Assembly (NCBI RefSeq): GCF_001949145.1
Contig: NW_019091361.1
Location: forward strand, 2,238,919 to 2,302,918
DNA: 64,000 bases
DNA from: Acanthaster planci
Taxonomy: Eukaryota
Direction of reading: 5' to 3'
Shown: positions 25,101 to 28,100 of the stretch, piece after piece
Position numbering within the stretch: position 1 is the first letter of the stretch
Layout: the number at the start of each line of letters is the position of its first letter
The notes under the pieces: generated by a model
What the model was told of the DNA's origin: nothing
Database searches by the model: none
What the model saw: the letters and a program-made list of their open reading frames with translations, nothing else
Position numbers and translations under genes: made by a program

Positions 25101-28100
25101 TTAATACATGCAGTACGTGCATTTTTATCTGGTGGTCTGATACCTACGTGGATTTTAACATTTTGTAAATTATTCTATTACTTTTGTACCGATAGCCAGC
25201 CATAGTTTTAGCATCCATATGTAGCAAAAACATGACTGTGAAGTCAAAACAGTAAACCCTATGGGCCTCGACCTGGACCAAGAGAGGGCGCTATTTTCTT
25301 AGCAATGGAGGCTCCTTTGGTTGGAAGTGAACTTTGCTGGTTCCCGAACGACTACGAGATGCATGCGTTGTGCGCACATTGCTACCAACAAAATGAACAC
25401 TCCTGACCAACGTGGCTCTCTTCAAACGATGAAGGGGGACGCTTCTGCTCAAGGCGGATAGGCACAGGGCCCTCTCCATCAAAACGTACCCATGCATTGA
25501 GAGGTGCCCAAGTTGGAATCCGCTCGCACAAGTCCCGCAGGATCCTGATGACGACAACGCAGGACTGCAGCCCAGTCGCCCTAGCCTGGTCACAAAACAA
25601 AGGACGGACAAACGCAGAAGGACAAACTGTCAAAGCAAGGGCTACCGGATGGATGCAATGGGCAGAGGAGTGCATTCAGTCACTTGGCCAGAGGGGGTAA
25701 TCCACTAAGATTAACTCCCGGGGGGGGGATTCACTTGGAATGTGGATGAATGAATAGAGAGCCGGTGAAATACATCACAACTACGATATTAAGGGTGAAA
25801 GACTCTTTGTCGCTGATGAACTAAGTGTATGCAAGGCCATTACTTTTAATTTAAAATCAAGGCAGTAGTAAAATGTTAGTTTAGACATTAGTTGTAAAAC
25901 TACCACTATTTTCCGACAATCCGATCAAGGAATAACAATAACAGTTATTCTTATTCCTTGTGGCTTTAATGAAATAGCAACAAGAAACATATGCATACAT
26001 ATACATTACTTGCACTGAATGTGTATGTATCCATAAAACTCCTATTTAAAAAATTCAAAATGAAAAACCAAATTTCTCAGAACATTGTAATTTGTCAATT
26101 AGGTTCTTTTTTACATCTTATTTTTCCTACCTGTTCAATCTTAATTTGCCAAATTCTAAAGAGCTACATGCTAGGTGGTTATTCAAGTTCGGACGGTTTG
26201 AACTTACCTGGATACATTGGCAGGGATAAAGCTTCAAACAGACATAAATATGCTTGAATTCTGTTACAAATCTGACAAGCGTTTGATCATTTTGTTTTGG
26301 TTTACTATTTGACACATTGTTTCAAAGGTGCGAAAGGATTTCATGGCCTAGGTTAGAAAAATGCTTGCTTAAAAATTGTACTTAATTTTTCACACAAATA
26401 AAATGTTGATTATTCGTTTCACATTTTGGGCAAGCTAAATAGTTTCACAGCATTATAATTGTCATTGCATTGTATCTTTATATTGTAACTACAGCATTGG
26501 TTTTCTTGCTTTGCTTCCCGCCCCCCTCAAAAAAACATGGTTCTTCAAACCTACTTTTAAACAAAAGACTGAAAATCTTTGATCTCCTGAAATGACAGCA
26601 AGTATCCTTTCCCATTTCTGGAACTGAGAGCTCACTTGTCAAACTCCTAACAGAACACTTTAGAAACAAAAGCCCTAGAGAGAAAGATTGAATGGAATCG
26701 AACCTGAAACCACTTAGCATGGCGTAATGCAGCCAAGGCTTCCAGGCATTTTTGCCTGTCCAAGACGTCAGGTGGGTCCTTAGCCGTATCTATAGCATAA
26801 ATCATGACACAGCCTTTGGATGGGATGGGTGTTTGACCAACACGCCGCAAAGCGACTCATGCAGCAACCCCGCTTTCCCCGCCGTGCGGTCAACGGCGAC
26901 TGACCGGGCGGTACAGAAGTTGCTCAGGGGGACAGGCTGGGCCCCAGATGCACACTCGGCATTTTGGGTGTGGGTTTCAACTGACAGGGTGTGTGAGTGT
27001 TTTGAGATATTTTGGCGGTTCCAAATACAGCCTCGTGATGCAGGTGAAAGACAGTTAACAGATCACCGAATTTTAGGCTGATATGAAAACCAAAAAATGC
27101 TCAAGACTTGAAATGTTCTTATCCAAGCCGACAACAGTGCAAATGAAGGAAACCTGGCAAATCATGCATTTTCAACACTTTAATCTAATAGAACAGCATG
27201 CTATAATGGGTTCGAAATAAGAAGCAGGCCCCATCTTCTGACAACACTTCATTTAGTTACAACCTATCGATCACTTCGCCTATTTAGAGTCGGACAACAA
27301 TTTTTGACAATGCCCGCATTTCAAGGACGGTGAACACCACTTTCACCAATGTTTCAATGTAGGTAAATGTCAGTTGAGTGTAAAACCAATATGAAAAAAA
27401 AAAAAAATCAAGTGTAACCCCAGGAACCACATCGCCGCAGTGACCAAAAAAAGGGAGCCTCATCCCCCTATACATGAGCGCGACGGATGGTCAAAAATCC
27501 TCCTCGCTGATGCCACACATCTTAACAGACTGGTGAAGAGCTTGAAATGAAGAGCAGTTGACTAAATGCAAAGGGTAGATTAAAATACAAACAAAACACA
27601 CAGAGGCAAGCAGGCAGAGTCAGGGAACCATACATGATGGTCACCTAGCAGTGCCAGCCTCTTGCAATCAAAGTGTCAATATGGAAAACATAAATCAACA
27701 GTTGGGGAAGATGGTAACTCCTCCTTAAACTTTCGGGAGCCAAAATATACTCAAAATACTAAAACATTTTTTCGTGTTTTTTTTTTCCTTTCCAAGAGGA
27801 GTGGAAAAAGTTTATATACAGGGGATTCCTCTTTTGTCATTCTCAAACTGAAGTTGCATGTACAAGGTCTATGAGAAAATTTCTGCCTCCAAAGTTCTCT
27901 GTTCCATACTGGAGCAAAGGGCACTGCAATTCACATTTTCACAGGATGATTAAATAAGTGGCAGTTGGTCCCCGCTGAAATAACAACACCCAAAGTGAAT
28001 ATACATCTCGTTTGCCAATGATCAACATTCATTTTGAAGCCAAAACCAGGAAATACACAGATTCTGTCAACTGTAAGAATGTTGGGGGCTCGTGGGACAA

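What the first reader, a model, noticed from the sequence alone, without database searches (positions are those of the whole stretch)
26805..27515. Strand-specific long-range RNA duplex in ZFR intron 14 masking a poison splice site: candidate dsRNA-sensing autoregulatory switch
Seen in sequence: on the ZFR pre-mRNA, arm A (27515->27368) pairs antiparallel and colinearly with arm B (26986->26805) across a ~380-nt loop. The nine blocks are UGGCAUCAGC/GCUGUGUCA; GGAGGAU/AUCCCAUCC; UUUGACCA/UGGUCAAA; CGUCGCG/UGCGGCG; CUCAUGUA/UGCAUGAG; GGCUCCCUUUUUUU/GGGGAAAGCGGGGUU; GGUCACUGCGGCGAU/GUCGCCGUUGACC; GGUUCCUGGGGUUACACUUG/CGAGUGUGCAUCUGGGGCC; and a perfect UCAACUGACA/UGUCAGUUGA. By hand count this is roughly 85-90 bp. 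More than 15 pairs are G-U and would be A-C mismatches on the other strand, which argues for selection on RNA rather than a decayed DNA inverted repeat. The perfect 10-bp helix sits exactly on an alternative acceptor (UGUCAG|UUGA at 26980). The outermost helix ends ~15 nt from the weak constitutive acceptor of exon 15. Established knowledge: ZFR and the DZF family (ILF2, ILF3, STRBP) bind dsRNA and regulate splicing, and splicing factors commonly autoregulate through poison exons and NMD. Inference: ZFR binds this duplex in its own pre-mRNA and tunes productive versus NMD splicing.
Basis: partly seen in the sequence, partly recalled or inferred. Interest (0 to 1): 0.9.

Follow-up and report, generated by a model that had tools for sequence, protein, structure and literature searches.

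The report
Ancient RNA stem guarding ZFR exon
Two short intron sequences in the starfish gene for ZFR, a splicing protein that binds double-stranded RNA, recur almost letter for letter in insect-like, mollusc-like and vertebrate relatives and are predicted to pair into an RNA stem just before an exon whose skipping cuts the protein short, so the stem likely lets the protein limit its own production.

Summary
The gene is starfish (Acanthaster planci) ZFR, intron 14. Its core is two 13-nt boxes (27500-27488, 26839-26827). Both recur upstream of the same exon in 12 of 13 related introns with enough sequence, 128-2527 nt apart, including vertebrate ZFR and an ILF3 gene. Arms inside the boxes share about 27% identity between lineages, yet pair best with their own partner (p=0.0002, seven distant rows). 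The proposed poison acceptor at 26980 has no support. The unproductive events seen are skipping of the 86-nt exon 15 and retention of intron 14. Skipping puts a stop at the junction; it appears in starfish reads, in annotated isoforms of 5 of 5 echinoderm clusters, and in 3 of 24 spliced contigs from other animals. ZFR binding, NMD and the direction of control are inferred, not shown. No description was found in 10 literature searches of a partial library, and the scan held no earlier ZFR finding.

The parts
22111..44481 (-). [quoted passage not shown]
   Evidence: Exon 13 is 100% identical to P0001, Acanthaster planci ZFR-like X2; exact exon map
28608..28746 (-). Exon 14 (139 nt), ends in phase 1
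   Evidence: junction loose ends at 28608 and 28747 in RNA reads
26790..28607 (-). Intron 14 (1818 nt), covered by RNA reads (likely retained or detained)
   Evidence: Run X22 depth about 4.7 across the intron vs 25 on exon 14; 0 on the laid part of intron 13 in all three RNA runs
27488..27500 (-). Box A, GGAUUUUUGACCA: conserved 5' half of the core
   Evidence: Identical in 11 of 12 related introns that carry it, variant in the ILF3 locus; one copy in the window
26827..26839 (-). Box B, UGGUCAAACACCC: conserved 3' half of the core, starting 50 nt before the intron end
   Evidence: Identical in 10 of 12; one substitution in L025; last four letters differ in the ILF3 locus; one copy in the window
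27368..27516 (-). Arm A: box A plus a lineage-specific inner extension
   Evidence: Predicted helices with probability 0.86-1.00 at 27495-27433 and 27377-27368; own-partner pairing in relatives
26804..26986 (-). Arm B: lineage-specific inner extension, an internal hairpin (26924-26863), box B and the branch-point region
26704..26789 (-). Exon 15 (86 nt, phase 1 to phase 0): frame-essential cassette exon with a non-consensus GUU donor
   Evidence: skipping in reads and isoforms; GTT donor in 10 of 12 related loci
25490..25585 (-). Exon 16; its first bases give a UAG right after the exon 14-16 junction
   Evidence: Computed skip product ends ADAAG*, equal to isoform X3, P0123
26981..26983 (-).

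Best explanation
ZFR intron 14 carries two conserved 13-nt boxes that are predicted to pair, with lineage-specific arms, into a long RNA stem just upstream of frame-essential exon 15, and ZFR with its partner ILF2 likely binds this stem and holds back splicing to exon 15, so that more of its own transcripts skip the exon or keep the intron and would be lost. Shown: the boxes, their position, their conservation across deuterostome-like and protostome-like loci and in ILF3, own-partner pairing of the inner arms, exon 15 skipping with a stop at the junction, and RNA coverage of intron 14. Predicted: an 8-bp core, then a small internal loop, then a 2-3-bp closing helix, extended inward by tens of base pairs. 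Inferred: (1) the stem forms in cells; (2) the zinc fingers of ZFR-ILF2 load on the long stem; (3) the invariant core places the complex next to the branch point and slows U2 loading, and the weak GUU donor makes the exon easy to lose; (4) the skip form goes to NMD, its stop lying about 90 nt before the next junction with four junctions downstream, and the intron-retained form stays in the nucleus; (5) the net effect is negative feedback.
For: Both boxes in 12 of 13 related introns, box B starting 42-93 nt before the acceptor, boxes 128-2527 nt apart. Among distant lineages the boxes and their immediate flanks account for nearly all intron similarity found. Inner arms about 27% identical between rows, yet the own partner ranks first of 10 in 7 of 10 rows; permutation p 1e-5. 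Composition-controlled z is -2.72 for own pairs vs -0.33 for foreign pairs, and exact p is 0.0002 for seven distant rows. Skip isoforms in 5 of 5 echinoderm clusters, 4 skip vs 3 inclusion reads in run X24, and 3 of 24 spliced contigs. Intron 14 read-through proteins in two mollusc-like clusters. A branch-point-like motif lies 3' of box B in 8 of 9 related rows. Published for human cells (10.1101/2022.06.15.495552, sections read): ZFR-ILF2 prefers dsRNA, more tightly at 24 than 12 bp; ZFR is enriched on conserved intronic pairings; it regulates exons flanked by detained introns; ILF2 knockdown raises ZFR mRNA about 2.5-fold and also ILF3 mRNA, the two genes shown here to share the element.
Against: No binding, knockdown or NMD data were obtained. 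The core pairs are invariant, so they show no compensatory change, and one pair is broken in L025. Outer flanks over the branch region show no covariation (p 0.50 and 0.28). L031 lacks both boxes, and none was found in the short upstream stretch of L034. Inner-arm pairing alone beat shuffles at 1 of 300 or better in only 6 of 13 rows; it was not significant in the four insect-like rows or L028. The sense strand folded more stably than the antisense in only 9 of 13 rows. ZFR shows little sequence specificity in vitro, which does not explain an invariant core. The same preprint says ZFR favours NMD-insensitive isoforms of other splicing-factor genes, which would point to positive control. ZFR knockdown left ILF3 and STRBP mRNA unchanged in HEK-293TO cells, although ILF3 rose 0.6 log2 in differentiated THP-1 cells (PMC5861047 supplement rows). 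Skip reads reached the listing threshold in 1 of 3 runs; the runs come from one study and are unstranded; the retention control is part of one short intron. Four of five read alleles in the arms slightly weaken at least one folding score, and together they weaken both.
Confidence: 0.58

Rival explanations
1. The stem controls exon 15, but the reader or the sign differs. Another protein or a spliceosome part recognises the invariant core and its internal loop, or ZFR-ILF2 binding promotes inclusion, making the element a sensor of ILF2 supply or a positive loop.
For: An invariant core suggests sequence-specific recognition, while ZFR is nearly sequence-blind in vitro. ZFR favours NMD-insensitive isoforms elsewhere. 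The ILF3 copy differs only in and around the loop. Box A matches the Sm-site consensus (recalled), but the ILF3 copy does not.
Against: ILF2 depletion raises both ZFR and ILF3 mRNA, which fits negative control by DZF dimers. The element sits in genes for dsRNA-binding proteins, and its long arms match ZFR's length preference.
Confidence: 0.2
2. The stem is a passive splicing aid that brings distant intron signals close to the exon 15 acceptor or hides cryptic sites; skipping and retention are leak, not regulation.
For: The stem would loop out 128-2527 nt. Starfish has only weak branch-point candidates near the acceptor. Skip reads were listed in only 1 of 3 runs.
Against: A bridge needs pairing, not 13-nt boxes kept unchanged across phyla. 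Skipping recurs in many lineages, and the weak donor is itself conserved.
Confidence: 0.09
3. The stem is an ADAR substrate. Editing in or near box B (an AA read as AG would make a new CAG about 44 nt upstream, as recalled for ADAR2 auto-editing) changes splicing, linking ZFR levels to editing activity.
For: ZFR and Zn72D regulate editing (PMC7306179, abstract start and passages). Long imperfect stems with A-C mismatches are typical substrates (recalled).
Against: No editing-type change was listed in either arm, including box A at depth about 6 in X22. No pyrimidine tract precedes box B, and the distance to the acceptor keeps no fixed frame across rows. Depth at box B was under 3, so that site is untested.
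Confidence: 0.07
4. One reading: the innermost 10-bp helix masks a poison acceptor at 26980, and ZFR tunes its use.
For: The helix is predicted at probability 0.96 in the reference, and use of the AG would give a premature stop.
Against: No joint listed in three RNA runs against 21 canonical junction reads. None of 3 annotated isoforms uses it. It has the lowest acceptor score. The helix is broken by an allele in 13 of 13 reads. The region has no sequence match in relatives.
Confidence: 0.04
5. A decayed DNA inverted repeat or transposon relic with no RNA role.
For: Whole-region folding is only marginally better than shuffles, and the antisense strand also pairs. No whole genome was held, so copy number outside the window is unknown.
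Against: The same boxes sit at the same position in the same intron across distant animals and in a paralogue, with arms that changed yet still match their own partner. One copy each in 64 kb.
Confidence: 0.02

Closest known systems
DEAD element of plant DRH1/RH46 helicase genes (10.64898/2026.01.23.701338; abstract and section list seen)
   Same: A conserved intronic RNA structure in the gene of an RNA-structure-handling protein, shared with its paralogue, that switches splicing toward non-coding forms in a negative loop.
   Different: There a helicase opens a structure to expose an alternative site, shown by experiment. Here a dsRNA binder would sit on a long-range stem, the outcome is exon skipping or intron retention, and the loop is untested.
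Autoregulatory AS-NMD by skipping a frame-essential exon: RBM10 (PMC5737846, search listing only), FUS exon 7 (scan note e1-9562727 and recall), PTBP1 exon 11 (recalled)
   Same: Skipping a coding exon whose length is not a multiple of three gives a premature stop in a splicing regulator's own mRNA.
   Different: As recalled, those use single-stranded binding motifs. Here the conserved cis-element is a two-part long-range pairing kept across protostome-like and deuterostome loci.
[quoted passage not shown]
   Same: Long-range intronic pairings linked to splicing and bound by ZFR.
   Different: PCCRs are defined for human genes. ZFR is not named in the text or in the five supplement files held; the full catalogue was not among them and may list the human pair unnamed.
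ZFR ultraconserved-element exon (10.1101/2022.06.15.495552, passages)
   Same: The mammalian ZFR locus is known to hold an exon in an ultraconserved element, a class tied to AS-NMD.
   Different: I could not establish which exon that is (one search found nothing). The passages and sections read describe no structure or autoregulation at the ZFR locus.
ADAR2 auto-editing of an intronic duplex that creates a new acceptor; DGCR8 mRNA hairpins (both recalled, no call)
   Same: A dsRNA-binding protein's own transcript carries a duplex that reports its activity.
   Different: Those act through editing or cleavage; ZFR's DZF domain lacks catalytic residues (abstract), so binding alone would have to act.

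Membership tests
Autoregulatory AS-NMD switch of a splicing factor | Host gene encodes an RNA-binding splicing regulator | tested here: met
   ZFR with zinc-finger and DZF Pfam domains; splicing role from 10.1101/2022.06.15.495552
Autoregulatory AS-NMD switch of a splicing factor | An alternative splice form with a premature stop well upstream of the last junction | tested here: met
   Exon 15 skip gives a stop at the start of exon 16 of 20; seen in reads
Autoregulatory AS-NMD switch of a splicing factor | The event is conserved across species | tested here: met
   5 of 5 echinoderm clusters and 3 of 24 spliced contigs from other animals; not seen among the 4 hemichordate cluster members or the named Mytilus members
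Autoregulatory AS-NMD switch of a splicing factor | The isoform is stabilised when NMD is blocked | not testable with these tools
   No NMD-inhibition data available
Autoregulatory AS-NMD switch of a splicing factor | [quoted passage not shown] | not testable with these tools
   Only indirect: ILF2 knockdown raises ZFR mRNA
Conserved long-range intronic RNA structure | Both arms conserved in position and complementary | tested here: met
   12 of 13 related introns
Conserved long-range intronic RNA structure | Covariation of paired regions | tested here: met
   Met at arm level for the inner arms. The core is invariant with one broken pair, and the outer flanks show none. No per-column covariation test was run.
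Conserved long-range intronic RNA structure | Pairing shown in cells or by compensatory mutants | not testable with these tools
   Needs experiment
   read depth is low and NMD was active
ADAR-edited intronic duplex | A-to-I changes in the arms | tested here: inconclusive
   None listed; depth 1-10 and no matched DNA over the intron
Described RNA family (Rfam 15) | Match at gathering threshold | tested here: not met
   0 matches in the window
Transposon-derived inverted repeat | Multi-copy, lineage-restricted arms | tested here: not met
   One copy of each box in the window, position conserved across phyla; genome-wide copy number not checked

The most novel reading that the evidence does not exclude
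An undescribed RNA switch older than the protostome-deuterostome split: an invariant two-part helix-and-loop motif, on a replaceable long stem, through which DZF-protein dimers (ZFR-ILF2, and after gene duplication ILF3-ILF2) read their own level. Paralogue-specific loop letters would decide which dimer acts. It would be one of very few intronic RNA structures kept from insects to vertebrates and a natural specific ligand for a protein family thought to bind dsRNA without sequence preference.
Probability: 0.4. Interest if true: 0.9.

Novelty: new variant of a known kind. Interest (0 to 1): 0.8.

Why it matters
Intron sequence is rarely recognisable between protostomes and deuterostomes, and long-range pairings have mostly been catalogued within vertebrates or within flies (recalled). 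Here a defined 26-nt two-part element, present in vertebrate ZFR and ILF3 loci, sits beside a conserved unproductive splicing event. It gives a concrete test of how the DZF proteins, which regulate splicing and editing and (for ZFR) the interferon response, keep their own levels. It offers an explanation for the published rise of ZFR and ILF3 mRNA after ILF2 knockdown. It also supplies a natural RNA for structural work on ZFR-ILF2. A two-box mutation and rescue in a minigene would settle it quickly.

Tried and rejected
No whole genome was held, so no genome-wide copy count. Rfam: 0 matches. Reads were laid on 26779-29165 only, so most of exon 15, its donor and intron 15 are uncovered, and junctions to exons 15 and 16 are seen only as loose ends. 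The DNA run X10 covered only part of intron 13, so read alleles have no DNA control. My guess that the allele at 27456 improves pairing was not borne out. Outer-flank covariation: none. Lower variation in the arms among four insect-like introns: 5 of 156 vs 66 of 924 columns, p 0.08, not significant. Synonymous-site conservation in exon 15 across 12 loci: 0.36 vs 0.31 in exon 16, no clear excess. The block 4 figure used the wrong copy of its partner; one search gives the right one. Rows left out: L012 (same coordinates as L009); L015 (42 nt of intron) and L034 (acceptor not placed) from the 13; three of four near-identical insect-like rows and L031 (no boxes) from the 10-row test; L019, L021 and L024 from the 7-row test. 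Literature: 10 searches gave no description; the box sequences matched only five unrelated papers, seen as listings. Term searches in PMC3064809, PMC10735318, PMC2724269 and PMC8052449 found no ZFR or Zn72D mention. PMC5861047 and PMC7306179 had no 'autoregul' hit. PMC2680859 and PMC10790352 passages added nothing on self-regulation. Two papers asked for by DOI were not held: a vertebrate RNA-structure family catalogue and the journal version of the DZF network study. The preprint's supplements were not available, and several supplement files of PMC5861047 were cut; these may bear on novelty.
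Full report
Gene and coordinates. A 57-residue exon from the window matches Acanthaster planci ZFR-like isoform X2 (P0001) at 100%. That protein maps exactly onto 20 minus-strand exons. Exon 14 is 28746-28608, intron 14 is 28607-26790, exon 15 is 26789-26704 (86 nt) and exon 16 is 25585-25490. Intron 14 is phase 1 and intron 15 is phase 0, so losing exon 15 shifts the frame. No whole genome was held, and Rfam gave 0 matches.

The observation. The listed blocks are in the sequence. Arm against arm, the sense strand gives -114.4 kcal/mol (0 of 500 shuffles) and the other strand -88.4 (9 of 500), with 18 G-U among 103 pairs; the arms were chosen by eye, so this overstates significance. 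The whole 751 nt folds at z -1.8 versus -0.2. In the ensemble, blocks 3, 4, 5 and 9 are firm (0.96-0.98), blocks 1-2 are partial, and blocks 6-8 do not form as drawn. A better inner model pairs 27470-27452 with 26945-26925 and leaves a hairpin inside arm B. In the full intron the core is less certain, at 3.4 of 8 expected pairs.

The proposed poison acceptor fails. It scores below all 19 true acceptors of the gene. Three RNA runs from one study, about 18% of each read, gave 14, 4 and 3 reads for the normal exon 14-15 junction and no listed joint into the intron; the listing threshold is 3 reads. None of the 3 annotated A. planci proteins uses it. All 13 reads over 26979 carry an allele that opens an A-C mismatch in the 'perfect' helix. 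Depth is low and NMD was active, so rare use is not excluded.

What the RNA does show. Run X24 has 4 reads joining exon 14 directly to exon 16, against 3 to exon 15; the other two runs list none. The computed skip product ends ADAAG*, identical to annotated isoform X3. Short isoforms occur in all 5 echinoderm clusters examined: Acanthaster and Asterias rubens end the same way, and the Antedon, Anneissia and Amphiura tails read, by my inspection, as exon 16 in the shifted frame. They were not seen in the 4 Ptychodera members or the named Mytilus members. Among 24 spliced contigs from other animals, 3 join exon 14 to exon 16 with a stop one codon later; contig counts are not isoform ratios. Intron 14 is covered by reads (about 4.7-fold against 25 on exon 14 in X22, patchy in X24, thin in X23), while the laid part of intron 13 has none. 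The libraries are unstranded and the control is one short intron. Two mollusc-like protein clusters contain long ORFs that run from exon 14 into intron sequence and stop, which fits retention there too.

The conserved element. An exon 16 alignment retrieved 54 loci from metagenome contigs. Thirteen held enough of intron 14 for the test after L012, L015 and L034 were set aside. In 12 of the 13, two boxes recur: GGAUUUUUGACCA and UGGUCAAACACCC. Box B starts 42-93 nt before the acceptor, and the boxes lie 128-2527 nt apart. By best protein hit these loci are insect-like (five), mollusc- or other lophotrochozoan-like (four) and fish-like ZFR (two); L033 is ILF3 (E 2e-20 to the solved ILF3 chain, against 1e-5 for the ZFR locus L037). 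These group labels are approximate. L031 lacks both boxes. L015, echinoderm-like, begins inside box B. Among distant lineages the boxes and their immediate flanks account for nearly all intron similarity found. Each box has one copy in the window. The boxes form an 8-bp helix, a small internal loop and a GG/CC closure. Seven of the eight helix pairs are invariant in 10 of 10 rows, and one is C-A in L025.

Covariation. Because the core is invariant, I tested the arms. The 30 nt inside the boxes are about 27-28% identical between rows on average (maximum 67%). Folding each arm A against each arm B, the own partner ranked first of 10 in 7 of 10 rows at 30 and 50 nt (permutation p 1e-5) and in 5 of 10 at 15 nt (p 1.3e-4); the two vertebrate ZFR rows were weakest. 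With composition controlled, own pairs averaged z -2.72 and foreign pairs -0.33; with related rows dropped, seven rows gave exact p 0.0002. So the stem's sequence has been replaced in each lineage while pairing was kept. Against this: outer flanks show no such signal, inner arms alone beat shuffles clearly in only 6 of 13 rows, and the sense strand was the more stable in 9 of 13. The read alleles in the starfish arms avoid the core but together weaken the stem by 6-8 kcal/mol.

Mechanism. Shown: boxes, position, arm-level covariation, skipping with a stop, intron coverage, and a non-consensus GUU donor on exon 15 in 10 of 12 loci. A branch-point-like motif lies just 3' of box B in 8 of 9 related rows; starfish has only weak candidates, one inside box B. 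Inferred: the stem forms, ZFR-ILF2 binds it, and U2 loading beside it slows, so exon 15 is skipped or the intron kept. In human cells ZFR-ILF2 prefers dsRNA, is enriched on conserved pairings and regulates exons beside detained introns, and ILF2 depletion raises ZFR and ILF3 mRNA (10.1101/2022.06.15.495552; abstract, sections 6, 8, 9, 11 and passages read). ZFR knockdown did not change ILF3 or STRBP mRNA in HEK-293TO cells. I give negative autoregulation 0.58, another reader or sign 0.20, a passive aid 0.09, editing 0.07, the 26980 acceptor 0.04 and a DNA relic 0.02.

Comparison and novelty. It works like known autoregulatory AS-NMD switches and most closely like the plant DEAD element (abstract). 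It meets three of five defining features of that kind; the other two need experiments. The mammalian ZFR locus is known to carry an ultraconserved exon, which I could not place. Ten searches and the term look-ups listed under Tried and rejected found no account of this structure, but the library lacks most subscription papers and two relevant ones were not held. The scan's index had no ZFR finding. Verdict: a real, ancient, apparently undescribed cis-element; new variant of a known kind; interest 0.8.

Noticed in passing
   Followed up: no
window 27500-27488: Box A reads like an Sm-binding site (purine-A-U5-G-purine; consensus recalled); the ILF3 copy in L033 does not.
   Followed up: no
protein P0063 (Nymphon gene model): An extra stretch before the exon 15 peptide contains DQTP, which the L025 form of box B would encode; a hint that box B is present in a sea spider and was read as exon.
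   Followed up: partly
proteins P0049, P0052 (Octopus), P0066 (Lingula, partial): The Octopus models leave exon 15 and read into the next intron, in line with a weak exon 15 donor; the Lingula partial model ends at about the end of exon 15.
   Followed up: no
L019, L021, L022 intron 14: Beyond the boxes these three share long conserved blocks across the whole intron (71-100% identity), including near the 5' end; further regulatory elements are likely.
   Followed up: no
window intron 14, about 967-947 nt before the acceptor; L037 about 4378-4358 nt before its acceptor: A 21-nt match at 95% between starfish and a vertebrate-like locus (E 0.002 in a small search); may be chance or low complexity.
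   Followed up: no
L031 intron 14: Lacks both boxes but has predicted local hairpins in its last 120 nt; a possible loss or replacement of the element.
   Followed up: partly
L028 intron 14, 880-638 nt before the acceptor: A separate inverted repeat of about 250 nt (71%) inside the loop, probably a mobile-element relic.
   Followed up: no
window 28210-28257: An exact 24-nt tandem duplication inside intron 14.
   Followed up: no
window 34943: The exon 7 donor is also GTT as mapped, the only other such donor among 19 in the gene.
   Followed up: no
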